In this document: one piece after another, positions 22,571 to 49,866 of the stretch
How the letters are laid out: each line of letters starts with the position of its first letter
Numbering within the stretch: position 1 is the stretch's first letter
Assembly (NCBI GenBank): GCA_964372875.1
Contig: CAYJTB010000004.1
Coordinates: forward strand, 4,343 to 68,342
Length of the DNA: 64,000 nt
Reading direction: 5' to 3'
DNA from: an uncultured bacterium
Lineage (GTDB): Bacteria; Omnitrophota; Omnitrophia; Omnitrophales; JACQLI01
The notes under the pieces: generated by a model
Told to the model about the DNA's origin: nothing
Databases searched by the model: none
The model's input: only the letters and a program-made list of their open reading frames with translations
Made by a program: the position numbers and the translations under genes

Positions 22571-23644
22571 ATGAAAATTTTAGCCTTGGTAACGGAGGCC
22601 TATGGAGGAGCGGGAGGAATCGCCAGGTTTAATCGCGATCTTCTTAAGGCGCTGTCTCAAATCGAACCTCAGCCAGAGATCGTAATATTACCGCGCGTTC
22701 GCCCCTACGGGGCTCGCAATGACGGATTGGTAGGTAAATTAGGTTACGCTACTGCGGCCTTAAAAACATTTTGGCAACAAGGCCCTTTCGATTTAATTTT
22801 CTGCGGCCATCTTCACTTAGCGCCTTTGGCCGCGCTTCTTTCACGAATGAAGAAAACGCCGGTTTGGCTTCAAATTCACGGCATCGAGGCATGGCAGAGA
22901 CCGTCTGATCTTCTCGCCCGGGCGGCGGAGAGCTCAGATCTTGTCACTGCGGTAAGCCGCCATACCCGAAGAGAATTTTTAGAGTGGGCCTCTATCGATC
23001 CTGGGAAAGTGCGCGTTCTCCCCAATACCGTGGATGAAAATTTTACCCCCGGTCCCAAACCGGACTACCTGCTCAAGCGTTACGGATTAGAAAATAAAAA
23101 AATTCTTTTCACCCTCTCCAGGTTGTCCTCTCAAGAAAAATATAAAGGCCATGACCGGGTTATCCGTGTCCTGCCACGCCTCCTGGAAAAATTCCCCAGC
23201 CTCGTTTATACGATCGGAGGATCGGGCGATGATCAAGCCAGGCTCCAGGCGCTAGCCGGGGAGTACCGATTAAAGGATGCGGTGATGTTTCTGGGTGAAA
23301 TCAAAGAGACCGAGCTTGCCGATCATTACCGCATGGCGGATCTTTTTGTGATGCCGAGCACGGGAGAAGGATTTGGGATCGTATTTCTTGAGGCGGCCCG
23401 CTCAGGAATTCCTGTTGTCGCTGCCGGGGCGGGAGGAGCTTTCGATGCCCTGCTGGAAGGAAAGATCGGGCGCTTGGTGAATCCGGATGATGCTGATGCG
23501 CTGGCGCAAGCCATTGAAGAAACTTTAGCTTCCCGTACCCATTCCCCCAAACTTGTTCAGCGATTTTCTTCCGCCAACTTTCACCAGTTGGTTGAAACTT
23601 TGATGAATGACCGGCTTGTTTTGACGGGTGTTGAAAATGGTTAG
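22571..23644 (+). CDS. Glycosyltransferase family 4.
   Basis: C-terminal EGFGIVFLEAARSGIPVVA (E-x7-E) GT-B motif. Confidence 0.75.
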   Translation: MKILALVTEAYGGAGGIARFNRDLLKALSQIEPQPEIVILPRVRPYGARNDGLVGKLGYATAALKTFWQQGPFDLIFCGHLHLAPLAALLSRMKKTPVWLQIHGIEAWQRPSDLLARAAESSDLVTAVSRHTRREFLEWASIDPGKVRVLPNTVDENFTPGPKPDYLLKRYGLENKKILFTLSRLSSQEKYKGHDRVIRVLPRLLEKFPSLVYTIGGSGDDQARLQALAGEYRLKDAVMFLGEIKETELADHYRMADLFVMPSTGEGFGIVFLEAARSGIPVVAAGAGGAFDALLEGKIGRLVNPDDADALAQAIEETLASRTHSPKLVQRFSSANFHQLVETLMNDRLVLTGVENG

Positions 23645-24506
23645 CCTGGAACGAATTAAAAACGCAATCCGGAACCGGTATTTTTCAGAAAACCGGGTTG
23701 TCGTCATTGAACCGGCAAAAGGCTGGCGGATGTTGGACTTCAGAGAACTCTGGGCTTATCGGGAACTGTTTGGGGTATTGGCATTAAGAGACATCAAAAT
23801 CCGCTATAAGCAAACGGTCCTGGGTTGCGCCTGGGCCGTCATTCAACCGGTGATGGGAATGGTGGTGTTTTCTGTTATTTTCGGACATTGGGCCAAGATA
23901 CCCTCAGACGGTTACCCGTACCCAATTTTTGTTTATGCCGGACTTCTCCCTTGGAATTTTTTTGCGGCCACTCTGGCCGCAGCGGGAAATTCCGTGGTGA
24001 GTTCCTCCAATCTTATCACTAAAGTTTATTTCCCTCGCCTGATCGTTCCCATGGCTTCTTTAGGGACACCTCTTGTGGACTTTTTCATTTCCTCGTTTGT
24101 CATGCTGTCGCTCATGATATATTTCAAAGTCGGATTGCATATCAACCTTCTCGCGATTCCATTTTTGATTCTCGCCGTTATTTTTACCGCGCTCGGCGTG
24201 GGGACTTTGCTTTCGGCTTTAGTCGTTGCGTACCGCGACTTCCGATTCGTGATCCCCTTTCTTTTGCAAGTCTGGATGTATGCGACGCCCGTGATTTTTC
24301 CGATCGGGCTTGTGCCGAGCCAATGGCGGTGGGCGCTTTATCTCAATCCGATGGCCGGCATCATCGATGGGTTCAGGTCTGCATTTTTGGGAAAACCTTT
24401 TAATCTCGATGTCCTTGGGCTTTCCTTTTGTGCGGGCATCGTCATGTTTATTATTGGGGTAGCTTATTTCGAAAAAGTCGAGCGCCGTTTCGCGGATGTA
24501 ATTTGA
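23628..24506 (+). CDS. wzm: ABC-2 type polysaccharide export permease (Wzm/KpsM/TagG-like).
   Basis: Six TM helices and an ABC-2 permease signature. The cognate ATPase lies about 3.9 kb downstream, beyond an accessory insertion. Confidence 0.8.
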   Translation: MLKMVSLERIKNAIRNRYFSENRVVVIEPAKGWRMLDFRELWAYRELFGVLALRDIKIRYKQTVLGCAWAVIQPVMGMVVFSVIFGHWAKIPSDGYPYPIFVYAGLLPWNFFAATLAAAGNSVVSSSNLITKVYFPRLIVPMASLGTPLVDFFISSFVMLSLMIYFKVGLHINLLAIPFLILAVIFTALGVGTLLSALVVAYRDFRFVIPFLLQVWMYATPVIFPIGLVPSQWRWALYLNPMAGIIDGFRSAFLGKPFNLDVLGLSFCAGIVMFIIGVAYFEKVERRFADVI

Positions 24507-24507
24507 T
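24454..24507. repeat. A 54-bp perfect direct repeat, copy 1, covering the 3' end of wzm. Copy 2 is at 26077-26130.
   Basis: Exact identity (TTGGGGTAGCTTATTTCGAAAAAGTCGAGCGCCGTTTCGCGGATGTAATTTGAT) at both positions. Confidence 0.85.
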
Positions 24508-24544
24508 ACCCGCCAACGGTCACCGAAGAAAGCTGCTCTTTTGG

Positions 24545-25699
24545 GTGGAGAACTACCACAGTTTTTATGATCAATACCTCCAAGCGCATCCTGAATTAGA
24601 AAAAGAATCCTTTGAAGGGATCAGCCGGAAACTCTATGAACAAATGTTTTATCAAGCGGATAGTTACGCTTACGCCGCTCGCGAGCTCGGGTATGACGCC
24701 GGGCAAGTGATTCCCACATGCCGCTCCCTTCAGGAGCGATGGGGAGCCGAACACGGAATGTCGTTCCCCCCTCGCTGGTTGAGCTCGAGACCCTGGCGCT
24801 GGTGGTGGACACGGATCGCTGGAAAACCGCACCCCAAGGAGTCGTTCTATGAAAAAATTCTATTGAAACAACTCGAGGAATTTCGTCCCGATCTTCTCTA
24901 TATTTTCACCGGGGCGCCGATAACGTCCTCACTCCTTGCAAGGGCCCGAGAATTCTGCAGCCGCATTGTCATTCAGTGGACCTGTCTCATTGACCCGAGC
25001 CATCCTTTTCATTTGTACGACGAAGTGGTTTCGTGTGCACGAAATTTTGTCGAAGACTTTCGCAGCATGGAAGTTCCCGCGGCCTTCTGTCCCCACGCTT
25101 TTGACGAAAGGGTGCTGAATAAAATTCGAATACCTGCAAACAAAGAAGGAGCGGTGTTTGTAGGAAGCCTATCCGCACTGCACCGGCACCGGATTGAAAT
25201 TCTCGACCAACTTTCGAGGCAAATGGATTTTGACTTCTACGGCATGGGGGTCGAGTGCCTCCTCAAAGATTCGCCGTTGAGGAAATATTACCGGGGCCCG
25301 GTCTTCGGGCTTCCGATGTATGAGGTTTTCTCCCGCTGCCGGGTTGTAATCCATGCTTCAGGAGACGCCACCCTGCCCGCTGCCGGAGCCAAGAGACTTT
25401 TTGAAGCAACCGGAGCCGGCGCCTTTCTTCTGACCGAGGACCAGCTGGGGCTTGGAGAGTTCTTTGAAGTTGGAAAAGAAGTTGAGACCTTTTCAAGCGT
25501 GGAGGAATGCGCCGAAAAAGTTCGATATTTTCTATCACATGATTCAGCCAGAGAAGCAATCGCTAAAGCGGGTCAGACGCGGACACTTCGCGATCATACG
25601 TTTCGGGTTCGGATGCCGAAACTCATGGAGATTCTGGAGAATGTCATCGAAGGTAAGGGAGCTCGGGAGACCGTTGCAAGAAGAGCGAAACTCGTTTGA
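24545..25699 (+). CDS. CgeB-family (DUF3880 / Glyco_trans_1_2) glycosyltransferase-like protein. The start is uncertain and the gene may be 5'-truncated at the repeat junction.
   Basis: The C-terminal region (RYFLSHDSAREAIAKAGQTRTLRDHTFRVRMP) resembles CgeB-type GT domains and is paralogous to 52332..53360. No canonical start follows wzm in frame, and GTG at 24545 is the first candidate. Confidence 0.45.
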   Translation: MENYHSFYDQYLQAHPELEKESFEGISRKLYEQMFYQADSYAYAARELGYDAGQVIPTCRSLQERWGAEHGMSFPPRWLSSRPWRWWWTRIAGKPHPKESFYEKILLKQLEEFRPDLLYIFTGAPITSSLLARAREFCSRIVIQWTCLIDPSHPFHLYDEVVSCARNFVEDFRSMEVPAAFCPHAFDERVLNKIRIPANKEGAVFVGSLSALHRHRIEILDQLSRQMDFDFYGMGVECLLKDSPLRKYYRGPVFGLPMYEVFSRCRVVIHASGDATLPAAGAKRLFEATGAGAFLLTEDQLGLGEFFEVGKEVETFSSVEECAEKVRYFLSHDSAREAIAKAGQTRTLRDHTFRVRMPKLMEILENVIEGKGARETVARRAKLV

Positions 25700-26085
25700 G
25701 TGGATTAACGGTGAAAAAGAAATCGACAGGCCGTGAACAAGCTCAGGGATTCAACTTCTTCAAAAAAGCGGGGCCTTCTTCATCCTCCTGGGAGAATCAA
25801 GTTCGCAGCCTCTGGAGGGAGTATCTCGTTGAGACGTTGGGGAGACCCGAGGAGAATGCCCGCGAGAGGATCGAGCAAGAGATTTCAGCTTCTATCTATC
25901 ACGAACTTCTCTCCGGATTGGAAACGGCGGGATGGAAATTTGAGGGAAGCGTGGCCATTGACATCGGCTGCGGCACGGGCGGCCTTGTGGGTGAACTCGT
26001 AAAACGATCGGCCCATGCGGTGGGAATCGAACCCGGCACGGCTTGGCGCGAAGCGCCGAGCCAACGGCTGTTATCCTTGGGGTAG
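25696..26085 (+). pseudogene. 3'-truncated class I SAM-dependent methyltransferase fragment.
   Basis: Only motif I (IDIGCGTGGLVGELV) and motif post-I are present. The ORF runs into direct-repeat copy 2 and stops after 129 aa. Confidence 0.5.
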
Positions 26086-26130
26086 CTTATTTCGAAAAAG
26101 TCGAGCGCCGTTTCGCGGATGTAATTTGAT
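26077..26130. repeat. A 54-bp perfect direct repeat, copy 2, duplicating the wzm 3' end.
   Basis: Identical to 24454-24507. Confidence 0.85.
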
Positions 26131-26805: not shown

Positions 26806-27444
26806 ATGAAATTTATAGAGTTCGTACAGGCCTTTGGGAGACTCCCCCTCATTGAAACAGAAAATCTGTTGGCAGGAGCCGCCGATAGCGCCGCGATTAA
26901 AGTGCAACTCAGCCGTTGGACAAGAAGTGGAAAAATTATTCAGCTCAAAAGGGGCGTCTATCTTTTGGCCGAGTCCTATCGCCGGGTGGAGCCTTACGAA
27001 CCTTTTATCGCATCCATTTTGAAAAAGCCGTCTTATCTGAGCCTTGAAAAAGCCCTTGAGCATCATCATTTAATTCCGGAAAGTGTGCCCGTCTATACCT
27101 CGGTGACCCCCAAAGGGCCAGCGAGATTTATTTCCGAACTAGGCAGTTTTAATTATCGGCACATCCAGCCTTCTCTTTTCTGGGGATACGAATCAGTCAC
27201 CGTTCGCCGCCAAACAGCCTTTATCGCTACTCCGGAGAAAGCTCTCTTAGATTTGATCTATCTCAAAGCAGGAGAAATTTCCGGGGATTACTTGGAAGAA
27301 ATGAGGCTGGAGAACCTTCAAGCCCTCCGGCCTACCCGAGTTTTGGCGCATGCCGCGCGCTTTAACATGCCCCGTATGGCGCGCGCAGCCCGAGTGCTCA
27401 CCGCTTTTATCCGCTCACGCCGCCGGGAGGAAAAAACGCTTTGA
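26806..27444 (+). CDS. abiEi: Type IV toxin-antitoxin / abortive-infection antitoxin AbiEi-family protein.
   Basis: An N-terminal wHTH and an AbiEi_4-like domain (KRGVYLL...KALLDLIYL). It is followed by an AbiEii-family nucleotidyltransferase gene. Confidence 0.65.
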   Translation: MKFIEFVQAFGRLPLIETENLLAGAADSAAIKVQLSRWTRSGKIIQLKRGVYLLAESYRRVEPYEPFIASILKKPSYLSLEKALEHHHLIPESVPVYTSVTPKGPARFISELGSFNYRHIQPSLFWGYESVTVRRQTAFIATPEKALLDLIYLKAGEISGDYLEEMRLENLQALRPTRVLAHAARFNMPRMARAARVLTAFIRSRRREEKTL

Positions 27445-27463
27445 TCCCATCACCTCCATTGCA

Positions 27464-27500
27464 AAAGGATGCCAATAAAGATCAGGAGCATCCTTTTGAA
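27464..27500 (+). terminator. Hairpin (GGATGC-loop-GCATCC, extendable to AAAGGATGC/GCATCCTTT) followed by TTTTG, between abiEi and abiEii. It could be an intrinsic terminator or attenuator.
   Basis: A stem of 6-9 bp, a 15-nt loop and a U-run. It sits in the 105-nt gap between genes that are normally tightly coupled. Confidence 0.3.
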
Positions 27501-27549
27501 ACCCTGTGGGTTTCCTCGATGCGAGGCATCGAAGAATGGAGATGATGGG

Positions 27550-28359
27550 ATGAAAGATTACGTTCTCGAGCTCGCTCGGTCCCAAAAAGATTCAAATGCC
27601 AAACTGAACACGATGCGCGAATACCTTCAGGCTTACATTTTAAAAATCTTGCACGGGCAGGGTTTTTTTCGGACGAATGCCTTTGTGGGAGGCACAGCCT
27701 TGAGATTTCTCCATGGCTTGCCCCGTTTTTCAGAAGACTTGGATTTTTCGAAGGAGAAGCAACCCGCCGATTCTTTCGAAGCATTTTTAAAAAAACTTAA
27801 GCGCGAATTGGAGCTAGCCGGCTACGAAATCTCCATTTCCTGCCGAGATCAAAAAACCGTGCAAAAGGCATCGGTCAAATTTGAGGCCCTCCTGCACGAA
27901 GCCGGGCTTTCGCCTCTTCCGGGACAAAAATTGGCCGTCAAACTCGAGATCGATACCCATCCTCCTGAAGGAGCCGGCTTAAAAACAGAAATTGTTAACA
28001 AATATTTCCCAATCGCCTTCCTCTCGTATGACCTGCCATCCCTTTTTGCCGGAAAATTGACGGCGCTTTTTTTAAGAAGGTACACCAAGGGCCGGGATCT
28101 TTTTGATTTGGGGTGGTATCTATCCCGTTGGAGAGGGCTGGTTCCCAACCTAGCGCTTTTGCGGAACGGACTCGAACAGGCTTCTTGGCGGGGACCGCTT
28201 CCGACAGAATCAACTTGGCGGGATCCAGTTTACGGTTTCGTTGAGAAAATCGATTGGGAACGAGTTAGAGAAGACGTCCAAAATTTCCTGGAGAACCCCT
28301 CTGATTTGGATGTTTTTACCAAAGACAACGTACTTGGGCTCGTTAAGGAAAAGCGTTGA
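27550..28359 (+). CDS. abiEii: AbiEii/AbiGii-family nucleotidyltransferase toxin (DUF1814).
   Basis: TMREYLQAYILKIL...FVGGTALRFLHGLPRFSEDLDFS is the AbiEii NTase motif (GG...SxDxD). The start is taken at MKDYVLE. Confidence 0.7.
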   Translation: MKDYVLELARSQKDSNAKLNTMREYLQAYILKILHGQGFFRTNAFVGGTALRFLHGLPRFSEDLDFSKEKQPADSFEAFLKKLKRELELAGYEISISCRDQKTVQKASVKFEALLHEAGLSPLPGQKLAVKLEIDTHPPEGAGLKTEIVNKYFPIAFLSYDLPSLFAGKLTALFLRRYTKGRDLFDLGWYLSRWRGLVPNLALLRNGLEQASWRGPLPTESTWRDPVYGFVEKIDWERVREDVQNFLENPSDLDVFTKDNVLGLVKEKR

Positions 28360-42317: not shown

Positions 42318-43072
42318 AACTTTACACCTTCTACACGTCTTCTCATCGAGTTCTAAAAGATGAATGGTTCCTTCCCGGATTGCAGGATGCCTATACGTTG
42401 AAAATTATCGAATGCAACCAAGATTGCCCCACCGGAGAATTTAGAAGCCAGGGGTGGAGCGCCACCATGCTTCGAAAATGCGATTTGATTCTCGAAGCCA
42501 TAGAAGAAAACCAGGGTGAAATCTTTATTTATTCTGATACCGACGTCCAATTTTTTAGACCTACAGAGAGCGCCATTCTTAAGTTAATGTGGGGAAAAGA
42601 TATTATTTTTCAACGTGATACTCCGAATGGAAAATTATGTTGTGGTTTTTTAGCGTGCCGAGCCAATCAGAAGACATTCAAATTATGGCAGGATGCCAAA
42701 CAAATAGTCTCAAAACAATCGGATCAGGATAAAGGAGATCAAGAGATTATCAATTCATTGCTGCTGAATAACAAAATTTCTGGATTGACACAACGAATAG
42801 GAGCCCGACTTGTGAGAATTTTTAAAAAAAAAGATCCATGGTTGGCTCACCGCTTATTTCCTCCCCAGAATAAATATGGAATCAAATGGGGCTATTTACC
42901 CGTGGAATTTTTTGGAGCGGGGACTTTGACCGGAAGACAGTGGGAACCGGGAATGTATCTGGAAATCCCAAGAAATATTATTCTTCATCACGCAAATTGG
43001 ACGGTAGGTCTAGAAAATAAAATCGCACAGCTTAAATTTGTGCGCGATGTCGTAGAAAGCAGGACTCTATGA
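42314..43072 (+). CDS. Hypothetical protein, possibly a GT-A-like nucleotide-diphospho-sugar transferase.
   Basis: A DXD-like motif (IYSDTDVQF). The TTG start overlaps the asnB-like stop (cTTGAa). Confidence 0.35.
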   Translation: MKLYTFYTSSHRVLKDEWFLPGLQDAYTLKIIECNQDCPTGEFRSQGWSATMLRKCDLILEAIEENQGEIFIYSDTDVQFFRPTESAILKLMWGKDIIFQRDTPNGKLCCGFLACRANQKTFKLWQDAKQIVSKQSDQDKGDQEIINSLLLNNKISGLTQRIGARLVRIFKKKDPWLAHRLFPPQNKYGIKWGYLPVEFFGAGTLTGRQWEPGMYLEIPRNIILHHANWTVGLENKIAQLKFVRDVVESRTL

Positions 43073-44013
43073 CGCATTGTCCAAGACTCGATGAATTGCC
43101 TTCGCCTCCTGCTGGGAAAACCGGCTGGCCCTGGACAGAAGAAAGCCCGCAACATTCGAATACCGCACCTGGCATCGAACCTTGGCCTCGCATCAGTATC
43201 GTAACCCCTTCTTACAATCAAGGAAAATTTATCGAAGAAACCATCCGCTCTGTCCTTCTCCAGGGTTATCCCAATTTGGAGTATTTTGTTATTGACGGTG
43301 GTAGCACAGACAATTCTATAGAGATTATCAGAAAATATGAGAAATGGCTGACTTACTGGGTGAGCGAGCCAGATAGGGGACAAGCCCATGCTGTTAATAA
43401 GGGATTGGAACGCGCTACCAGCGAAATAGCAGCCTATCTCAATAGCGACGATGTCTATCTTAGAGGATGCTTATCCCATGTCGGAGGAGCTTATCTCAAG
43501 ACCCGCTTTGATGTTCTGGTCGGCCGAAGGTGGTTGCCTCGAAAAAGTCTTTTTCTCCTCCGAAAGGGATGGTGGGAGACACAAATGAAGTCTTTCGTCT
43601 ACCCGTTTATTTTTACGAACGCCGGTCCATATGAACTTCCTCAGGAATGTATTTTTTGGAGCCATAAACAGTTTGGTAAAGCCAGATTCAATGAGGACTA
43701 TCATTGCTGTCTTGACGTCTGGTGGTTCTCTCACATTTACTCGGGAGCTCTTGTGGTGCATACGACAAAACAGTTGGGTTTTTTTAGAGATTACCCAGAA
43801 AATAAATCCAATCGGCTTAAAGAGCGGGTGAGGAAGGAAGCGCAAATGCTCAAGTTAGAAATGAAACCCTTCGAAGCTCGTATGACGGACGAAGCTAAAA
43901 AGGAAATTCTGTCCTCTTTTTATCGCGCGTCCTTCAAAACGCTTTTTCAACGCTTGTTAATACTGCATAATGAATTCTTCTTCCAGTACCAGCACCCAAA
44001 ATATTTGGATTAA
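43069..44013 (+). CDS. Glycosyltransferase family 2.
   Basis: ISIVTPSYNQGKFIEETIRSVLLQ and DGGSTD motifs typical of GT2. Confidence 0.75.
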   Translation: MTHCPRLDELPSPPAGKTGWPWTEESPQHSNTAPGIEPWPRISIVTPSYNQGKFIEETIRSVLLQGYPNLEYFVIDGGSTDNSIEIIRKYEKWLTYWVSEPDRGQAHAVNKGLERATSEIAAYLNSDDVYLRGCLSHVGGAYLKTRFDVLVGRRWLPRKSLFLLRKGWWETQMKSFVYPFIFTNAGPYELPQECIFWSHKQFGKARFNEDYHCCLDVWWFSHIYSGALVVHTTKQLGFFRDYPENKSNRLKERVRKEAQMLKLEMKPFEARMTDEAKKEILSSFYRASFKTLFQRLLILHNEFFFQYQHPKYLD

Positions 44014-44019
44014 CGGAAG

Positions 44020-44175
44020 GTTACTATCATTAAAATTATCCAAGTCCCATTTTGTTTTTATCCCGACGCGGTCGGGGGAACGGAAGTTTATGCCGAAGCG
44101 CTCGCTAAAAATTTGAAAAAGCTGAGCATAGAATCCGTAGTTTGCGAGCCTGCGGAGAGAGAAGAAGTGATATAA
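44020..44175 (+). pseudogene. Orphan 5' fragment of a GT4 gene (about 50 codons), duplicating the start of the GT4 gene at 44934.
   Basis: It translates to IIKIIQVPFCFYPDAVGGTEVYAEALAKNLKKLSIESVVCEPAERE, against the intact gene's FKTLQVPFCFYPDAVGGTEVYVEALAQGLKKFGVESVICAPAEKE. The first roughly 70 nt are near-identical and similarity then decays. Confidence 0.6.
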
Positions 44176-44200
44176 TGCCGCCAAAAGGGAAGAGAAACTC

Positions 44201-44536
44201 ATGAACATTCAAGAAACTCCCAACCAAAAAGTCATTCTCGATATCGTCGATAGAATCAAAAAAAACTACCGTCCTCAAAAAATCATTCTTTTCGGTTCCT
44301 ACGCTTACGGCCAGCCTCATCGGGATAGCGATATTGATTTGATGGTCGTTAAAGAAACTTCCGAAAGACCCATCGATCGGAGAGTGAATGTTAGCCGGAT
44401 TGTTTCGGATCCAAAGCGGCTTGTCCCATTCGGGGTGATCGTATTGACTCCTCAGGAGCTTTCCGATCGGCTTAATCGGGGAGATCAATTTATTGCTGAG
44501 ATTATAAAAAATGGCAGAATCTTGTATGAAGGGTAA
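44201..44536 (+). CDS. Minimal nucleotidyltransferase (MNT), the antitoxin-like partner of a HEPN protein.
   Basis: ILFGSYAYGQPHRDSDIDLMVV (GS...DxD). Confidence 0.75.
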   Translation: MNIQETPNQKVILDIVDRIKKNYRPQKIILFGSYAYGQPHRDSDIDLMVVKETSERPIDRRVNVSRIVSDPKRLVPFGVIVLTPQELSDRLNRGDQFIAEIIKNGRILYEG

Positions 44537-44921
44537 AGAATCCAATTATCCTTCGGACTGGTTCCGGCTCGGCGACAAAGAACTTATCCGCGCAAGAAAT
44601 CTTCTAAAACTGGATGACCTGGACGGAGCCGCTTTCAACCTTCAGCAGGCTTTGGAAAAATATCTCAAAGGCTATCTGCTCTCAAAGGGATGGGCGCTTC
44701 GCCGGATTCATGATTTGGACACTCTTTTGAACGAGACCGTTCAGCATGATGCCTCCTTTGAGAAATTTCGGGAAGCCTGTCTAAAAATTACTCAATATTA
44801 CATCGAAGATCGTTATCCTTTCACGGGGAATTCCGAGTTAACCAAGACAGAAATCGAGGATTCTCTTGAAACTTCAGAACAATTGATAAAAAAAATTCGC
44901 CGGTCATTTGATTTGATCTAG
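44511..44921 (+). CDS. HEPN-domain protein, the toxin-like partner of the MNT.
   Basis: Alpha-helical, with the Rx4-6H motif (RRIHDL). It overlaps the MNT gene by 26 nt. Confidence 0.7.
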   Translation: MAESCMKGKESNYPSDWFRLGDKELIRARNLLKLDDLDGAAFNLQQALEKYLKGYLLSKGWALRRIHDLDTLLNETVQHDASFEKFREACLKITQYYIEDRYPFTGNSELTKTEIEDSLETSEQLIKKIRRSFDLI

Positions 44922-44933
44922 TCACTTCTTCTT

Positions 44934-46310
44934 TTGTTCAAAACTCTCCAAGTCCCATTTTGTTTTTACCCCGACGCGGTCGGGGGAACGGAAGTTTATG
45001 TTGAAGCACTCGCTCAAGGTTTAAAAAAATTTGGAGTGGAGTCCGTGATATGCGCGCCGGCTGAAAAGGAGAGCGCCTATTCTCACAAAGGTCTCAAGGT
45101 TCGGCGCTTTGCTGTTCCTTCTGCGGTAAGTGATCTTCGGGAGCTTTACGGTGAAGGGAATTTCGAAGCAGCCCGGGCATTCTCCAAGATTTTGGATGAG
45201 GAAAAACCGGACCTTGTTCATCTTCACGCCTTCACGCGCGGCGTTTCTCTTCGTTTGGTACGCGAAGCAAAATCCAGAGGAATTCCTATTATCTTTACAT
45301 ATCACACGCCGACCGTGAGTTGCCAGCGGGGAACCTTGGTGCGTTGGGGTAAAGAAATCTGTGACGGCGTTCTTCGGCAGCGTCTCTGTTCTCAATGCAC
45401 GCTTCATGGCTTGGGAATGAATCGATTGGCTGCTCAAGCAATAGGAAGTCTTCCGTCCGTCGTCGGCCGGCTCATGGGACGAATGGGTCTCGCTGGAGGA
45501 GCTTGGACGGCCCTCCGAATGTCAGAACTTGTCAGACTCCGCCACCAAACACTTCATCGGTTTCTAGGAGAAGTTGACTCCATTGTTGCAACAGCTTATT
45601 GGGTCAGGGATCTTCTGGTTCGGAATCACGTATCCCCTCACAAGATCGCCGTCTCTCGGTATGGATTGTGTCAACCCTCCGCGCTCTCTACGAACTGCTC
45701 AAAATCGGAAGTCACGAGCTCACGACTAAGATTAAAAGTTGCTTTTATGGGTCGCATGGATAAGACCAAAGGACTTCATATTTTGATTCAGGCTGTGAAA
45801 TCGTCTCTTCGCCTTTCCGTCACCTTGGATCTTTATGGGGTTGCGCAAGGAGAATTCGGCCATGGCTATGAACGGGAGATGCATGCTTTGGCCGGAGAGG
45901 ATAGACGAATCACTTTCCATCCCTCCCTCCATGGCGAAGAAATTATATCTACATTGAAAAATTTCGATGTCCTCGCCGTCCCCTCTCAATGGTTGGAGAC
46001 AGGACCTATGGTGGTTCTGGAGGCATTCGCAGCTGGAATTCCCGTCGTGGGGTCGAATTTAGGCGGGATTTCAGAATTTGTTAAACATGAAACCAACGGC
46101 CTTTTGGTGGAAGAATTTCGATCAGCAAAAACATGGGCCGAATCCTTTCAGCGGCTTGTTGACAGCCCGGATTTGGTGGCCCGTTTGTCACGTGGGATAA
46201 AAGCTCCGAGAACCGTAGAAGAAATTGCCCAAGATATAATGTCTTTATATGAAACCCAACTTAGAAACAAAAACCCAAAGATTAAAGCCGCCCATGATGC
46301 CGACACTTAG
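44934..46310 (+). CDS. Glycosyltransferase family 4.
   Basis: GT-B fold with a C-terminal motif (ETGPMVVLEAFAAGIPVVGS). Confidence 0.75.
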   Translation: MFKTLQVPFCFYPDAVGGTEVYVEALAQGLKKFGVESVICAPAEKESAYSHKGLKVRRFAVPSAVSDLRELYGEGNFEAARAFSKILDEEKPDLVHLHAFTRGVSLRLVREAKSRGIPIIFTYHTPTVSCQRGTLVRWGKEICDGVLRQRLCSQCTLHGLGMNRLAAQAIGSLPSVVGRLMGRMGLAGGAWTALRMSELVRLRHQTLHRFLGEVDSIVATAYWVRDLLVRNHVSPHKIAVSRYGLCQPSALSTNCSKSEVTSSRLRLKVAFMGRMDKTKGLHILIQAVKSSLRLSVTLDLYGVAQGEFGHGYEREMHALAGEDRRITFHPSLHGEEIISTLKNFDVLAVPSQWLETGPMVVLEAFAAGIPVVGSNLGGISEFVKHETNGLLVEEFRSAKTWAESFQRLVDSPDLVARLSRGIKAPRTVEEIAQDIMSLYETQLRNKNPKIKAAHDADT

Positions 46311-47141
46311 ACAGGCTATCCGTAAGGCATGTCGTTACTTCGAAGAGATGAGGTTTATTTTCAGGTTTGGTGCCAATCAAAAGATTACGTGGTCCTTGCT
46401 TATCGCCATGACTCAGTTTCACCTGCGGAACCACTTTGGCCGGACAAAAAAGAACCAAAAGGAAGCCACGAAGCGTTACTGCCTTAAGTTAATGAACCGA
46501 ACCATTGATGTCTGGTTTCGTACTTATGCGGGCGATCTCTTCGTCTTGAACGAAGTATTTTTAGATCAATGCTATCGATTGCCGAAATTCCTGGATTGTT
46601 CTTTTCGGAATATCATCGATCTCGGAGCCAATGTAGGTTTGACCACACTCTATTTCAGCCAGTATTTTCCAAAAGCTAATTTTGTCTGCATTGAACCAAA
46701 CCCGGAAAACTTTCTCCTCCTTAAAAGAAATCTTTCATCTCTGAGAGTCACCCTCATTGAAGAGCTGTCAATTCTCATTCTGGAGAAGCTTGGTTTGACG
46801 ATTCGAAGCCGAGTTGGGGCGGATGCCTCACCACCATGCGCCCTTCGGGGAAGGAGATCAGAACTTATTCAATGGACCAAATCATGCAAGAATGCGGTTT
46901 GGAATCGACCGATCTTCTCAAGGTAGATATCGAGGGAGCAGAAAAACAGGTGTTTGACGGTGTCAAAGCATGGCTTAACGTCGTTAAAATGATCATCATT
47001 GAACTACATGGAAGCTATCCCCTTGCCGATTTCGAAAAAGAGGTATCAAAGAGTGGATTTCGGGTATTACCTCCAAATTCAGAATACAGAAACAAAATGG
47101 TTATGGCCCTATCACCTACCGCAATCTCGAAAGAATTTTGA
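46249..47141 (+). pseudogene. FkbM-family methyltransferase split by a frameshift into two ORFs (46249..46926 and 46836..47141).
   Basis: The N-terminal part carries IIDLGANVGLTTLYF (the FkbM SAM motif). The C-terminal part (LLKVDIEGAEKQVFDG...ELHG) is in a different frame. Confidence 0.5.
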
Positions 47142-47144
47142 ATT

Positions 47145-48296
47145 TTGAATAAGGTTATCTACATACAGTATACCAATCCAGCCGGATACCCTTCGCTGGA
47201 ACACAGCTCCCGGATTCTGGCGGACCGCGGCTGGCAGGTACGCTTCTTAGGCACGGGTGCCTTTGGCGCGAATAGATTGCAATTTCAGGAACATCCCAGG
47301 ATTTCGGTCAAACTTCTTCCCTTCTGCCGCGAAGGATGGAAACAAAAACTTCACTATCTCTGGTTTTGTGTCTGGACGATTACTTGGTTTCTATTCTGGC
47401 GCCCCCAATGGATCTACGCTTCGGACCTTTGGTCATGCCCCCTTGCTTGGTTCCTGAGCCTCCTAGGAGCACGAATCATTTATCACGAACATGATTCACC
47501 CGGAAGTTCTGGCGGAAGATTATGGTTTAACCTATGTCATTGGTGTCGGAGAAAAATCGCTCGTCAAGCCAATGTAGTCGTCATTCCAAGTAAAGAACGA
47601 GCGGACAGATTTTTAAATGATACTCAGACTCATCGTATGATCCATTGCATTTGGAACTGCCCAAGCAAAAGAGAAATGTCCACCTTGCGTCAATCTCTCG
47701 CCAAAGAAAATGGCGATCCCACCCTCAAAATTTATTATCACGGGAGTCTCAATCCTTATCTGCTTCCGTTAACGTTGCTAAAGGCGCTTGCATTGCTGGA
47801 GGGGCAGGTTCGGTTATTGGCTATCGGTTACGAAACAGTCGGTTCTCAAGGTTATCGAAATATTTTTGAACAAAGAGCCAAGGAAATAGGTGTAAAAAAA
47901 TATGTATCTCTCTTTCCGCCGAAGCCTCGGTCCGAGTTGTTTCATTTAGCGGCACAATGTGAAGTAGGACTGGCTCTCTTTCCGATGCACTCGGACGATT
48001 TCAATTTTCAACACATGGTAGGGGCTTCCAACAAACCTTTCGATTACCTAGCGAACGGCCTCGCCGTTTTGGTTTCTGATCTGCAAGATTGGAAGGAGAT
48101 GTATGTGGAGCCGGGGTATGGATTGGCTTGTGACCCCAGTGACCCCCAAAGTATTGCTGCCCGTCTTCAGTGGTTTTTAGACCACCGTGAAGAAACGCAA
48201 TCTATGGGCGAGCGCGGCCGGCAGCGGATTTTATCCGAGTGGAATTATGAACGGCAGTTTGCGCCGGTTTTGAAACAGCTACTGGTCCACCGATAA
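47145..48296 (+). CDS. Glycosyltransferase family 4.
   Basis: GT-B fold with N-terminal WQVRFLG and a C-terminal nucleotide-sugar-binding domain. Confidence 0.7.
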   Translation: MNKVIYIQYTNPAGYPSLEHSSRILADRGWQVRFLGTGAFGANRLQFQEHPRISVKLLPFCREGWKQKLHYLWFCVWTITWFLFWRPQWIYASDLWSCPLAWFLSLLGARIIYHEHDSPGSSGGRLWFNLCHWCRRKIARQANVVVIPSKERADRFLNDTQTHRMIHCIWNCPSKREMSTLRQSLAKENGDPTLKIYYHGSLNPYLLPLTLLKALALLEGQVRLLAIGYETVGSQGYRNIFEQRAKEIGVKKYVSLFPPKPRSELFHLAAQCEVGLALFPMHSDDFNFQHMVGASNKPFDYLANGLAVLVSDLQDWKEMYVEPGYGLACDPSDPQSIAARLQWFLDHREETQSMGERGRQRILSEWNYERQFAPVLKQLLVHR

Positions 48297-48321: not shown

Positions 48322-49617
48322 CTAAAGAAGATAGTACCAGGCGGGGATCATCCGGATTTTCCCGGAAATCTGGTAGCGATCCTTTGAAACCAGGATTTTT
48401 GATTTGCTCTTTAGAGAAGTCTTCTGAAAAGCTTCCATTTCCCGCGGTGGAATCGAATCCGTATAGCAAGTCTGGACCAAATGAGTCCCCTGTTTAAGAA
48501 AAGCGAAATCAATCTCGGGATCTTCGGTGTACCCCAGCCCCTTTTCATCCTTGAGGGCCTGGAAAACCAGGTTTTCAATCAGGAAGCCGCTGTCCCGGTC
48601 GACATTCCATGCCGCCGCATTTCGCAGACCGATATCAGCGACATAAATCTTCTTGCGAATCGTTTCTCTAAGTCTGGGTTTGAGGGAAAAGGAAAAGGGA
48701 GGAAGAAAGGAAAAAAGACCCGACCTTTCAAAGTAAGTCAGATATTCTTTCAAGGTATCGACGGCGATGTTCAAGGTGCCGGCGAGGGAGCGATAGCTCA
48801 GGGCTCTTCCCATGTTCGAGATCAAATATAAGGCCAGGGCTTCCAGTTTAAGGGGTTGTCTAATTTCGTACCTTCTAATCAGGTCACGGTAGAGAATGTC
48901 TTGGAAATATTGTCGAAGCAGGTCTTCCTTTAAGGCGGGGTCCTTGGTGAGAACGATACCTGGAAACCCTCCCTCCTTGAGGTATTTCTCGAAATAATGT
49001 CTCAACTCCGCTCTTTGATCGATCAGGGCTTCGTAAGAGCCCCTCTCGGGCACTCTGCCCGTCTTAAAGAGGAGATACTCCCGGAAATCAAGGGGTTTGA
49101 TTTCGAAGGAAAGATTTCTTCCCGTGAGGAGGGTGGCCAGCTCAGTGGATTGCACCGCAGAAGAGGAGCCTGTCAGGATCATTTGAAGCGGCCGCTTCTG
49201 TTCATAAACTTTATTTACCCATTTTTCCCAACCCTTTACCTCCTGGATTTCATCCAGGAAGAGAAACATCTCCCCCTTGGGATTCGTGATTTTCTGGAAG
49301 GTCTCAAGGAGTTGGTCGAGAAACGAAGACCGGTCCATTTCGGGAACGAACAAATTGTTTTCGAAATTGACGAAGGCGACGTTCTGCGGAGGGACATGAT
49401 GGTTCAAAAGATGTTGAATCAGTTGGTAGAGAAGGGTGCTTTTTCCGGAACGCCTGACGCCATAGAGGATTTTCACCTCTCTGACGGAGAAGGACTTGTA
49501 AATCTTGGAGATGTATTCCTCTCGCAGGATTCCCACGTGGGTTTTGAACTCTTTTCCGTGCCACCAGGGATTGGCTTGATGGAGAGACTCCTCGATGGCG
49601 GGATTCATGTCAACCAT
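48322..49617 (-). CDS. AAA+ ATPase with a C-terminal DUF4143 domain.
   Basis: Walker A GVRRSGKST, Walker B FLFLDEIQ and a DUF4143-like C-terminal region. It is on the opposite strand to the surrounding glycosyltransferase genes. Confidence 0.7.
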   Translation of the reverse strand: MVDMNPAIEESLHQANPWWHGKEFKTHVGILREEYISKIYKSFSVREVKILYGVRRSGKSTLLYQLIQHLLNHHVPPQNVAFVNFENNLFVPEMDRSSFLDQLLETFQKITNPKGEMFLFLDEIQEVKGWEKWVNKVYEQKRPLQMILTGSSSAVQSTELATLLTGRNLSFEIKPLDFREYLLFKTGRVPERGSYEALIDQRAELRHYFEKYLKEGGFPGIVLTKDPALKEDLLRQYFQDILYRDLIRRYEIRQPLKLEALALYLISNMGRALSYRSLAGTLNIAVDTLKEYLTYFERSGLFSFLPPFSFSLKPRLRETIRKKIYVADIGLRNAAAWNVDRDSGFLIENLVFQALKDEKGLGYTEDPEIDFAFLKQGTHLVQTCYTDSIPPREMEAFQKTSLKSKSKILVSKDRYQISGKIRMIPAWYYLL

Positions 49618-49775: not shown

Positions 49776-49866
49776 TGGCGAAGGCGAGGGAGGTCGCCAA
49801 CGGATCCTGGGCGAATGGAATTATGAACGGCAGTTTGCGCCGGTATTGGAGTTATTAAATGGTTAA
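49776..49866 (+). pseudogene. Orphan 3' fragment duplicating the end of the GT4 gene 47145..48296.
   Basis: It translates to GEGEGGRQRILGEWNYERQFAPVLELLNG* against the intact GERGRQRILSEWNYERQFAPVLKQLLVHR*. There is a 29-nt identical core, and its stop overlaps the next gene's ATG. Confidence 0.6.

What the first reader, a model, noticed from the sequence alone, without database searches (positions are those of the whole stretch)
44020..44934. MNT/HEPN pair inserted at the 5' end of a GT4 gene, leaving an orphan duplicate of the gene's first 50 codons
The region 44038-44100 is nearly identical to 44945-45007 (QVPFCFYPDAVGGTEVY...). After that the similarity decays, and the fragment terminates at about 44175. 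The MNT (44201..44536) and HEPN (44511..44921) genes lie between the fragment and the intact GT4 gene. The arrangement suggests the cassette arrived together with an alternative 5' end of the glycosyltransferase gene and displaced the resident one.
Basis: seen in the sequence. Interest (0 to 1): 0.65.

Follow-up and report, generated by a model that had tools for sequence, protein, structure and literature searches.

The report
Toxin-antitoxin cassette bracketed by duplicated gene start
A small two-gene toxin-antitoxin-type cassette sits inside the start of a sugar-transferase gene and is bracketed by two versions of that gene's first ~46 codons that come from different lineages; this is a recombination footprint already described for restriction-modification genes, and relatives of this cassette show it repeatedly.

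Summary
A 125-nt direct repeat (44032-44156 / 44940-45064, 81% identical) brackets a 783-bp MNT-HEPN cassette in a polysaccharide gene cluster of a Candidatus Omnitrophota genome. The arrangement is not an assembly chimera. Two independent read sets rebuild it at 100% identity, and a 93%-identical relative (L087) has the same layout with a frameshifted upstream copy, so that copy is a pseudogene.

The two copies are a mosaic. A 53-nt core is 52/53 identical. The first five codons (9/15) and the next 24 codons (47/72) differ mainly at third codon positions, so the two ends diverged as working genes in different lineages. The orphan keeps the native ribosome-binding site and start position. The intact gene starts at a TTG 12 nt after the HEPN stop.

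Of 56 related metagenomic cassettes, 11 are flanked by duplicated ends of host genes (carB, a response regulator, grpE), against about 1% of controls. The closest known phenomenon is "insertion with long target duplication", described for restriction-modification systems. I rate this a new member of a known kind, of moderate interest.

The parts
43069..44013 (+). Upstream family-2 glycosyltransferase gene (314 aa). Its stop TAA is at 44011-44013, in the same frame as the orphan fragment.
   Evidence: Pfam PF00535, E 7e-26. The identical protein lies on Logan contigs L001 and L003.
44015..44020 (+). GGAAGG Shine-Dalgarno-like sequence, 8 nt before the orphan's ATT at 44029. This is the native translation-start context of the GT4 gene.
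   Evidence: Read from the sequence. In the syntenic loci L005 and L006 the GT4 gene starts 4-5 nt after the upstream gene.
44026..44175 (+). Orphan GT4 5' fragment (a pseudogene). Codons 1-5 are 44026-44040 (IIKII, with ATT where homologs have ATG). The conserved core is 44041-44091. The divergent part is 44092-44163. A short out-of-homology tail and the stop TAA run to 44173-44175.
   Evidence: An hmmsearch with the GT4 profile scores it 2.8e-18. L087 has a +1 frameshift and a 3-nt deletion in this fragment.
44164..44200 (+). Left end of the cassette: the leader of MNT, including a purine-rich AAAAGGGAAGAG stretch. It is 36/37 identical in L087, more conserved than either coding gene.
44201..44536 (+). 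MNT gene, a minimal nucleotidyltransferase of 111 aa and the putative antitoxin. It carries the GS-x10-DxD motif (FGSYAYGQPHRDSDID).
   Evidence: Pfam PF18765/PF01909. NCBIfam MntA scores 34.9 bits, below its cutoff of 60. Nearest solved relatives are MntA-type proteins. Window vs L087: 21 differences, 14 at third positions.
44526..44921 (+). HEPN gene (131 aa as called in public assemblies; a longer ORF starts at 44511), the putative toxin. It overlaps the MNT gene by 11 nt.
   Evidence: Pfam PF05168, E 2e-24. 162 homologs at E<=1e-5, with H62 and R96-Y97-P98 invariant across 39 aligned sequences. Nearest solved structure is TT1696, 1UFB. Window vs L087: 34 differences, 21 at third positions.
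44922..44933 (+). 12-nt spacer TCACTTCTTCTT between the HEPN stop and the GT4 TTG start. It has no Shine-Dalgarno sequence.
44934..46310 (+). Intact family-4 glycosyltransferase gene (458 aa, TTG start). Its first ~46 codons (44934-45071) are the second copy of the repeat.
   Evidence: Pfam. It is identical to P0001 on a 77-kb NCBI contig; the nearest homolog is 61% identical.

Best explanation
**What it is.** A 783-bp MNT-HEPN (toxin-antitoxin-type) two-gene cassette lies inside the 5' end of a GT4 glycosyltransferase gene in a polysaccharide operon of an Omnitrophota bacterium. It has no recombinase gene and no terminal inverted repeats.

**How it most likely got there (inferred).** It entered by recombination with foreign DNA in which the cassette sat directly upstream of a diverged homolog of the same gene.
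- The conserved stretch encoding QVPFCFYPDAVGGTEVY gave the homology.
- The other joint was illegitimate. Equivalently, a circular copy carrying the cassette plus a GT4 5' piece integrated by a single crossover.
- The result is two copies of the gene start from two lineages. The upstream copy keeps the native ribosome-binding site and start position but is dead. The downstream copy heads the working gene.
- The 53-nt near-identical core is the crossover tract, has since been kept alike by gene conversion between the copies, or both.

**Consequences (inferred).**
- The cassette is transcribed as part of the operon.
- GT4 translation now depends on a TTG start 12 nt after the HEPN stop, so it is probably coupled to HEPN translation.
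- Recombination between the two copies could remove the cassette and rebuild one gene. An addictive toxin-antitoxin pair would penalise that loss.

**Shown here:** the anatomy, its presence in independent data, the decay of the orphan, the two-lineage signature, and the recurrence in related cassettes.

**Inferred:** the recombination mechanism, the direction of transfer, translational coupling, and toxin-antitoxin activity.
For: **1. The arrangement is real and old.**
- Logan contigs from ERR4904391 (L001, spanning GT2, fragment, MNT, HEPN and the second core) and from ERR3478686 (L002, L003) are 100% identical to the window. They break exactly at the shared 31-mer.
- L087 from SRR22387937 is 93% identical and has the same fragment, MNT, HEPN and GT4-start layout.

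**2. The orphan is decaying while the cassette is under selection.**
- The fragment in L087 has a +1 frameshift, a 3-nt deletion and about 15% substitutions.
- MNT differs by 6.2% and HEPN by 8.6%, with 14/21 and 21/34 differences at third positions.

**3. The copies are a mosaic**.
- Codons 1-5: 9/15 identical.
- Core: 50/51 identical.
- Next 24 codons: 47/72 identical.
- No pair of homologs with similarly diverged neighbouring sequence has a core identity above 45/51.

**4. The differences look like those between two working genes.**
- By codon position they are 6:4:15 (binomial p=0.0056), with 9 synonymous-only codons.
- Differences shared by both orphan copies are 5:1:9. Changes after the split are 1:4:3.
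- In the 72-nt region, fragment, intact gene and the nearest homolog L004 are roughly equidistant: 53/72, 53/72 and 47/72.

**5. Gene conversion is supported.**
- L087's orphan carries the intact-copy bases GTTGA.GCA just right of the core, where the window's orphan has GCCGAAGCG.
- One core difference is observed against about 4.8 expected since the split (p about 0.05).

**6. The layout recurs.**
- 11 of 56 metagenomic relatives of the cassette are flanked by direct repeats of 33-176 nt, against 5 of 473 control draws (Fisher p=2e-8).
- The repeats are host-gene ends: carB 5' (L096, L100), response-regulator 5' (L145, L146) and grpE 3' (L116).
- Their differences are 7:4:34 by codon position.
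- In all five 5'-end cases the intact gene's start lies 2-12 nt after the HEPN stop.
- Cassettes at the same target gene have different left junctions. Some clade members (L101, L112, L130) have the cassette upstream of the gene with no orphan detected.

**7. No mobility machinery was found.**
- No transposase or integrase ORF, inverted repeats or attC-like structure lies in or at the ends of the insert.

**8. The window holds two more gene-end duplications bracketing inserted genes**.
Against: - No empty site from a close relative was found, so the insertion itself is inferred from distant synteny only (L005 and L006, 58% identical GT4).
- None of the 80 related HEPN loci lies next to this GT4 family, so no donor arrangement was seen.
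- A single crossover between genes that are about 65% identical elsewhere needs an unusually similar core. The core identity may therefore owe everything to later conversion and say nothing about how the cassette entered.
- The codon-position tests rest on 25 differences in the window.
- In metagenome contigs, strain switching by the assembler could create part of the allele mosaic. The window itself has independent support.
- The link from the second core into the rest of GT4 is seen only in the NCBI contig.
- Toxin-antitoxin activity is untested, and the HEPN protein lacks an evident Rx4-6H motif.
Confidence: 0.55

Rival explanations
1. In-place 'insertion with long target duplication'. The cassette entered at codon ~46 with a duplication of about 130 bp of the target, for example by widely staggered breaks and fill-in or by template switching. 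The upstream copy then decayed, and gene conversion kept the core alike.
For: - This is how such brackets are described for restriction-modification systems (PMC2853133).
- Several related cassettes have 96-100% identical flanking repeats: L105, L116, L129, L136, L146.
- The orphan is demonstrably decaying.
Against: - Neutral decay of one copy predicts differences of about 1:1:1.7 across codon positions. Observed are 6:4:15 in the window and 7:4:34 in four other loci; pooled, this rejects the prediction at p=2e-4.
- Differences older than the window/L087 split are 5:1:9.
- The first five codons differ at 6 of 15 bases while the adjoining 51 nt differ at one.
- The fragment is as close to the foreign homolog L004 as the intact copy is.
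Confidence: 0.17
2. In-place duplication followed by allelic replacement. The bracket began as an exact duplication. Later homologous recombination swapped the body of the working GT4 gene, from the core onwards, for a diverged allele, as often happens in polysaccharide loci.
For: - It explains the synonymous-biased differences downstream of the core and the sharp breakpoint at 44092/45000.
- Polysaccharide clusters here are visibly mosaic.
Against: - It cannot explain why codons 1-5 of the intact copy, which lie between the cassette and the core, also differ from the orphan at 6 of 15 bases while encoding a genuine GT4 N-terminus (MFKTL; compare P0027, MKTLQVPF). A cassette-free donor has no homology to the left of the start codon.
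Confidence: 0.13
3. The fragment is retained because it is useful. It supplies the operon's ribosome-binding site and a short leader ORF whose translation ends just before MNT, so it drives or regulates cassette expression.
For: - GGAAGG lies 8 nt before the orphan's start position.
- The orphan ORF stops 25 nt before the MNT ATG in the window, and in L087 at a TGA overlapping that ATG.
- In L146 the 11-codon orphan is fused in frame to MNT.
- The leader at 44164-44200 is 36/37 conserved.
Against: - The peptide is not conserved: L087 has a frameshift and a 3-nt deletion.
- The start position holds ATT or ATC, not a standard start codon.
- The fragment evolves faster than the cassette genes.
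- This reading concerns retention, not origin, and is compatible with the best explanation.
Confidence: 0.1
4. Assembly chimera, or the leftover of a deleted neighbouring GT4 paralog unrelated to the cassette.
For: - The two copies share a 31-mer that breaks de Bruijn-graph contigs.
- Tandem GT4 paralogs exist in such clusters; for example another GT4 gene lies at 47145-48296.
Against: - Both cassette junctions are reproduced at 100% identity in two other read sets, and at 93% in a third sample.
- The same bracket occurs around related cassettes at carB, a response-regulator gene and grpE, where tandem paralogs are implausible.
Confidence: 0.05

Closest known systems
Insertion with long target duplication of restriction-modification gene complexes (Nobusato et al. 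2000, Gene 259:99; Furuta et al. 2010, NAR, PMC2853133)
   Same: - A small addiction-type gene unit with no transposase or integrase is bracketed by direct repeats much longer than transposon target duplications.
- The repeats often span the start or stop of the neighbouring gene, so that gene stays intact.
- The mechanism is unknown.
- A life cycle using the repeats for amplification and release was proposed for those systems.
   Different: - The cargo is an MNT-HEPN pair, not a restriction-modification system. The idea that the cargo's own DNA breakage drives insertion therefore cannot apply.
- The published repeats are near-identical to each other and to the empty target (for example 44-47 of 46-47 bp). 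Here only a 53-nt core is identical, and the rest differs like two functional alleles.
- No paper in the searched library links this mode to toxin-antitoxin cassettes.
Integrative elements that carry a replacement gene end (prophage e14 and phage 21 in icd; tRNA-targeting islands). This comparison rests on my own knowledge, not on a paper read here.
   Same: - The element brings its own copy of the target gene's end.
- After integration the gene stays intact, and a displaced, slightly different end is left as an orphan on the other side.
- Identity is highest at the crossover core.
   Different: - Those elements encode a site-specific integrase and are many kilobases long.
- This insert is 783 bp with only MNT and HEPN.
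- It targets the 5' end rather than the 3' end.
MNT-HEPN modules (Makarova et al. 2009, PMC2701414; HepT/MntA type VII toxin-antitoxin, Yao et al. 2020, PMC7641770)
   Same: - Two small overlapping genes.
- A minimal nucleotidyltransferase with the GS...DxD motif, plus a HEPN-domain protein.
- Patchy distribution and recent insertions into operons were noted by Makarova et al..
   Different: - The characterised systems use DUF86-type HepT toxins. This HEPN protein is PF05168-type and lacks an evident Rx4-6H motif.
- The MNT protein scores below the NCBIfam MntA cutoff.
- Makarova et al. do not mention flanking repeats.
Homology-facilitated illegitimate recombination in natural transformation (de Vries and Wackernagel 2002; from my own knowledge)
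   Same: One homologous anchor plus one illegitimate joint brings in foreign DNA without any element-encoded recombinase.
   Different: As far as I recall, it is usually described with deletion of recipient DNA rather than duplication. It was not tested here.

Membership tests
MNT-HEPN toxin-antitoxin module | Two adjacent, co-oriented small genes, typically overlapping | tested here: met
   MNT 44201-44536 and HEPN 44526-44921 overlap by 11 nt. An MNT-like ORF was found upstream of HEPN in 68 of 80 related loci.
MNT-HEPN toxin-antitoxin module | Minimal nucleotidyltransferase with the G[GS]-x9-13-DxD motif | tested here: met
   FGSYAYGQPHRDSDID is present. Pfam PF18765 E 6e-12 and PF01909 E 8e-11.
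MNT-HEPN toxin-antitoxin module | HEPN domain carrying the Rx4-6H RNase motif | tested here: inconclusive
   The HEPN domain is clear (PF05168, E 2e-24). No Rx4-6H motif is visible. The residues invariant across 39 homologs are H62 (in RRIHDL) and R96-Y97-P98.
Type VII HepT/MntA (NCBIfam equivalog) | Score above the curated cutoff of NF047752 (MntA) | tested here: not met
   34.9 bits against a cutoff of 60. The HEPN protein has no NCBIfam or PADLOC hit.
MNT-HEPN toxin-antitoxin module | Toxicity of HEPN, neutralised by MNT | not testable with these tools
   Only indirect evidence: both genes show third-position-biased divergence between the window and L087.
Insertion with long target duplication | The insert is flanked by direct repeats longer than 30 bp | tested here: met
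   125 nt, 44032-44156 / 44940-45064.
Insertion with long target duplication | No transposase, integrase or terminal inverted repeats in the insert | tested here: met
   Only MNT and HEPN lie in 44164-44933. No inverted repeats at the ends.
Insertion with long target duplication | An empty site with one repeat copy in a related genome | tested here: inconclusive
   The nearest relative, L087, also carries the insert. Distant syntenic loci L005 and L006 have the upstream gene abutting GT4 with no insert. The source species is not among the 185,579 representative genomes.
Insertion with long target duplication | The two repeat copies are near-identical duplicates of the target | tested here: not met
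   Only the 53-nt core is near-identical. The rest is 60-65% identical with differences shaped by selection.
Integron gene cassette | An attC recombination site at the cassette end and an integron integrase nearby | tested here: not met
   No attC-like inverted repeat occurs between 44100 and 45000. The flanking repeats are coding sequence of the GT4 gene. No integrase ORF lies among the neighbouring genes that were scanned.
Insertion sequence, MITE or transposon | Terminal inverted repeats with a short (2-15 bp) target duplication | tested here: not met

The most novel reading that the evidence does not exclude
MNT-HEPN pairs, and perhaps other small defence or addiction cassettes, form a class of recombinase-less mobile cassettes. 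They travel with a piece of a conserved host gene end as their homology arm. The proposed cycle:
- The cassette sits 2-12 nt upstream of, or just after, a conserved gene.
- It is picked up together with that gene end.
- It integrates into a new genome through host homologous recombination at the conserved stretch.
- It leaves a two-allele bracket that can also excise it cleanly.

The window's locus would be one footprint of this cycle. The 20% of related cassettes with such brackets would be others.
Probability: 0.3. Interest if true: 0.75.

Novelty: new member of a known kind. Interest (0 to 1): 0.55.

Why it matters
How toxin-antitoxin cassettes move between chromosomes without any mobility genes is a long-standing loose end. 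Brackets made of long duplicated gene ends have been described for restriction-modification systems, where the cargo's own DNA cutting was suspected to be the cause.

The same bracket around an RNase/nucleotidyltransferase-type cassette, with the two copies looking like alleles from different lineages, points instead to the host's homologous recombination acting on conserved gene ends. That would be a general route, and it is directly testable by transformation with circular or linear DNA and by PCR for excised circles.

Locally, it also means that expression of a polysaccharide glycosyltransferase has become tied to a selfish cassette. The cassette could in turn stabilise this variable surface-polysaccharide locus.

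Tried and rejected
- **Exact look-up of the 458-aa GT4 protein in the contig index:** nothing found. The protein is in the protein collection, on the 77-kb NCBI contig only.
- **Base composition across 40-49 kb:** the cassette (about 44% GC) does not stand out.
- **Promoter and terminator scan of 43000-46500:** counts at chance level.
- **Rfam scan of 43500-45500:** no RNA family. No tRNA genes in the window.
- **Is the cassette habitually linked to this GT4 family?** No. None of 80 related HEPN loci has the family next to it.
- **Search of 72,556 plasmids for the HEPN protein,** to obtain finished-sequence examples: no match at E 1e-8.
- **Representative genomes:** the source species is absent and the best GT4 match is 55-56% identical, so no sister-strain empty site was obtained.
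- **Is this window unusually rich in short-range direct repeats?** No. It has 3 per 64 kb, against 15 per 692 kb in other GT4 loci.
- **A first control script timed out** and was rerun.
- **In one search the reading frame used for L100 was wrong.** After correction its counts are 1:1:8.
- **Literature:** searches combining toxin-antitoxin with flanking repeats or target duplication found nothing specific.
- **Considered and rejected:** integron cassette, insertion sequence or MITE, and prophage or island with an integrase.
Full report
**1. What is in the sequence**

The region lies in a long same-strand polysaccharide gene cluster. The cluster includes asparagine synthase-like genes, a nucleotide-sugar transferase, GT2, GT4, FkbM methyltransferase genes, and wzm/wzt ABC transporter genes. 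All named relatives of the window's H+-pyrophosphatase, at 74-86% identity, come from Candidatus Omnitrophota. The source is therefore an Omnitrophota genome, held as a 77-kb NCBI contig.

The local order is:
- GT2 gene, 43069-44013
- orphan GT4 5' fragment, 44026-44175
- MNT gene, 44201-44536
- HEPN gene, 44526-44921
- intact GT4 gene, 44934-46310

**2. Checking the observation**

The repeat finder gives one 125-nt direct repeat, 44032-44156 vs 44940-45064, at 81% identity.
- The alignment shows 52/53 identity at 44040-44092 vs 44948-45000, including an exact 31-mer.
- Identity then drops to 47/72.
- The fragment is in frame with the GT2 stop and reads IIKIIQVPFCFYPDAVGGTEVYAEALAKNLKKLSIESVVCEPAEREEVI*, stopping at 44173-44175.
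- The family's normal N-terminus is MK[VI]I[QH][VI]PFCFYPD. The fragment therefore holds the true gene start, with ATT where homologs have ATG. A GGAAGG ribosome-binding sequence lies 8 nt upstream, and the start sits 15 nt after the GT2 stop.
- In the syntenic loci L005 and L006 the GT4 gene starts 4-5 nt after the upstream gene.
- The intact gene begins MFKTLQVPF... from a TTG 12 nt after the HEPN stop, with no ribosome-binding sequence.

Motif conservation does not explain the core identity. Among 1653 pairs of homologous 5' ends, the 54 pairs that are equally diverged in the following 72 nt reach at most 45/51 in the core. The observed value is 50/51.

**3. Not an artefact, and not recent**

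- Logan assemblies of two other runs rebuild the region at 100% identity. L001 spans GT2, the fragment, MNT, HEPN and the second core. L002 and L003 break exactly at the shared 31-mer, as a real repeat would make them do.
- A third sample holds a 93%-identical relative, L087, with the same layout.
- In L087 the fragment carries a +1 frameshift, a 3-nt deletion and about 15% substitutions. MNT and HEPN differ by 6.2% and 8.6%, mostly at third positions.
- The fragment is therefore a decaying pseudogene and not a conserved small ORF. The cassette genes are under purifying selection, and the arrangement predates the split of the two lineages.
- The 37-nt MNT leader is 36/37 conserved.

**4. Two lineages, not one duplicated sequence**

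- Outside the core the copies differ at 6 of 15 bases in codons 1-5 and at 25 of 72 bases in codons 23-46.
- The 25 differences fall 6:4:15 by codon position (p=0.0056), and 9 codons differ only synonymously.
- Using L087 to date the changes, differences shared by both orphan copies are 5:1:9, the pattern of genes diverging under selection. Changes since the split are 1:4:3 plus indels, the pattern of neutral decay.
- In the 72-nt region the fragment, the intact gene and the nearest homolog (L004, 61% protein identity) are about equidistant, at 53, 53 and 47 of 72.
- The intact copy's first five codons (MFKTL) are a genuine family variant; compare P0027, MKTLQVPF. They sit between the cassette and the core, so a later allele swap from a cassette-free donor cannot account for them.
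- This favours the reading that the cassette is linked to a foreign gene start.

**5. The core**

- L087's orphan has the intact-copy bases GTTGA.GCA immediately right of the core, where the window's orphan has GCCGAAGCG.
- The window's two cores differ at one site, where about 4.8 differences would be expected since the split (p about 0.05).
- I read the core as a tract kept alike by gene conversion, possibly seeded by the original crossover.

**6. The same bracket around relatives of the cassette**

- HEPN homologs are common in metagenomes: 162 at E<=1e-5, the closest outside this lineage about 70% identical.
- Of 56 related loci with an MNT gene and usable flanks, 11 have a direct repeat of 33-176 nt (86-100% identical). 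One copy lies just upstream of MNT and the other just after HEPN.
- Random 780-nt pseudo-cassettes gave comparable hits in 5 of 473 draws (Fisher p=2e-8).
- The repeats are ends of host genes: the carB start (L096, L100), a response-regulator start (L145, L146), the grpE end (L116), a redoxin-like end (L129), and some non-coding stretches.
- L145 is a clear parallel. The order is histidine kinase, orphan regulator start in the native position, MNT, HEPN, and intact regulator starting 5 nt after the HEPN stop.
- In all five 5'-end cases the gap between the HEPN stop and the host start codon is 2-12 nt.
- Differences between the two copies in four coding cases total 7:4:34 by codon position. This rejects both an even spread and the 1:1:1.7 expected if one copy decays neutrally.
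- Cassettes cluster by target gene. There is a carB clade (L096, L099, L100, L101, L112) and a regulator clade (L145, L146, L130, L125, L167).
- Left junctions differ within clades, and three members (L101, L112, L130) show no orphan. That fits repeated integrations anchored on the same conserved gene. Trimming by deletion is not excluded.
- Caveat: strain switching in metagenome assembly could produce part of these mosaics.

**7. The mode is not limited to this cassette**

- A Pedosphaera MAG (L041) has an orphan start of the same GT4 family (about 57 codons, about 88-90% identical). It is followed by a remnant of the upstream GT2 gene's 3' end and a different FkbM methyltransferase gene, and then the intact GT4.
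- The window itself holds two more brackets.
  - 48207-48272 / 49783-49848 duplicates the 3' end of the second GT4 gene around a minus-strand AAA_14/DUF4143 gene, a PADLOC PDC-S01 candidate defence gene. It again has an identical core and largely synonymous differences.
  - 24448-24507 / 26071-26130 duplicates the wzm 3' end around a glycosyltransferase-like gene plus a 129-aa ORF.
- An AbiEi/AbiEii pair also separates wzm from wzt.
- Such repeats are not rare in polysaccharide loci generally: 15 per 692 kb.

**8. Comparison with what is known**

[quoted passage not shown] Those units have long, variable direct repeats and no mobility genes, and the repeats often span a neighbour's start or stop. 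The mechanism is unknown, and the cargo's DNA breakage was suspected (PMC2853133).
- Makarova et al. noted recent MNT-HEPN insertions into operons but no repeats (PMC2701414).
- No paper in the searched library ties this mode to toxin-antitoxin cassettes.
- The present case matches the known kind in its anatomy. It differs in cargo and in the two-allele make-up of the repeats.
- As a toxin-antitoxin module, the pair meets the architectural and domain criteria. The HEPN protein has no evident Rx4-6H motif, the MNT protein is below the curated MntA cutoff, and the nearest solved structures are distant. Its activity is therefore inferred.

**9. Verdict**

- The feature is a new member of a known kind of rearrangement.
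- The recurrent two-allele bracket around MNT-HEPN cassettes is worth a systematic follow-up.

Noticed in passing
window 48207-48272 and 49783-49848 (insert 48322-49617, minus strand): The 3' end of the second GT4 gene (47145-48296) is duplicated (66 nt, 82%) on either side of a minus-strand AAA_14/DUF4143 ATPase gene, which matches the PADLOC candidate defence family PDC-S01 (E 2e-97). The orphan encodes ...GGRQRILGEWNYERQFAPVLELLNG* with its own stop. It has a roughly 32-nt identical core and largely synonymous differences elsewhere, the same signature as the main finding.
   Followed up: partly
window 24448-24507 and 26071-26130: A 60-nt direct repeat (97%) of the 3' end of the wzm ABC-2 permease gene (23628-24506) brackets an insert. 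The insert holds a Glyco_trans_1_2-domain gene (24428-25699) and a 129-aa ORF with no family match.
   Followed up: partly
window 26806-28359: An AbiEi/AbiEii type IV toxin-antitoxin (abortive-infection) pair lies between wzm and wzt, which are normally adjacent. This polysaccharide cluster therefore carries three inserted defence or addiction units.
   Followed up: partly
window 46249-47141: The FkbM-type methyltransferase gene downstream of GT4 is split into two overlapping ORFs (46249-46926 and 46836-47141). Only the second matches Methyltransf_21. The syntenic L005 has one 268-aa gene here. This is probably a frameshift, either a pseudogene or a sequencing error.
   Followed up: no
L041 2747-4170 (Pedosphaera sp. 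MAG JAYTIO010000489.1): The same GT4 family has an orphan 5' fragment (about 57 codons, 88% identical over 165 nt). It is followed by a remnant of the upstream GT2 gene's 3' end and a second FkbM gene (29% identical to the first), and then the intact GT4. This is a cassette-style insertion with both flanking gene ends duplicated and no toxin-antitoxin cargo.
   Followed up: partly
L096, L100, L145, L146, L116, L129, L105, L118, L090, L163, L136 (metagenome contigs): Eleven of 56 relatives of the MNT-HEPN cassette are flanked by direct repeats of 33-176 nt made of host-gene ends (carB, response regulator, grpE and others). The intact gene's start lies 2-12 nt after the HEPN stop. L156 also shows a flanking repeat in a self-comparison.
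   Followed up: yes
window 44164-44200 vs L087 86-122: The 37-nt leader upstream of MNT is 36/37 identical between two lineages whose cassette genes differ by 6-9%. This suggests a constrained regulatory or translation-start element.
   Followed up: no
L058 6199-8563; also L057, L059, L061, L021: GT4 loci of Binatus and deltaproteobacterial MAGs carry long direct repeats (about 180-330 nt, 85-98%). In L058 there are three copies spaced about 1.1 kb apart, downstream of the GT4 gene. They may be tandem paralogs or further cassette brackets.
   Followed up: no
L004 1612-2763: The closest GT4 homolog (P0002, 61% identical) is also followed by an AAA_14/DUF4143 gene, on the same strand. That gene family may therefore recur next to this glycosyltransferase family.
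   Followed up: no
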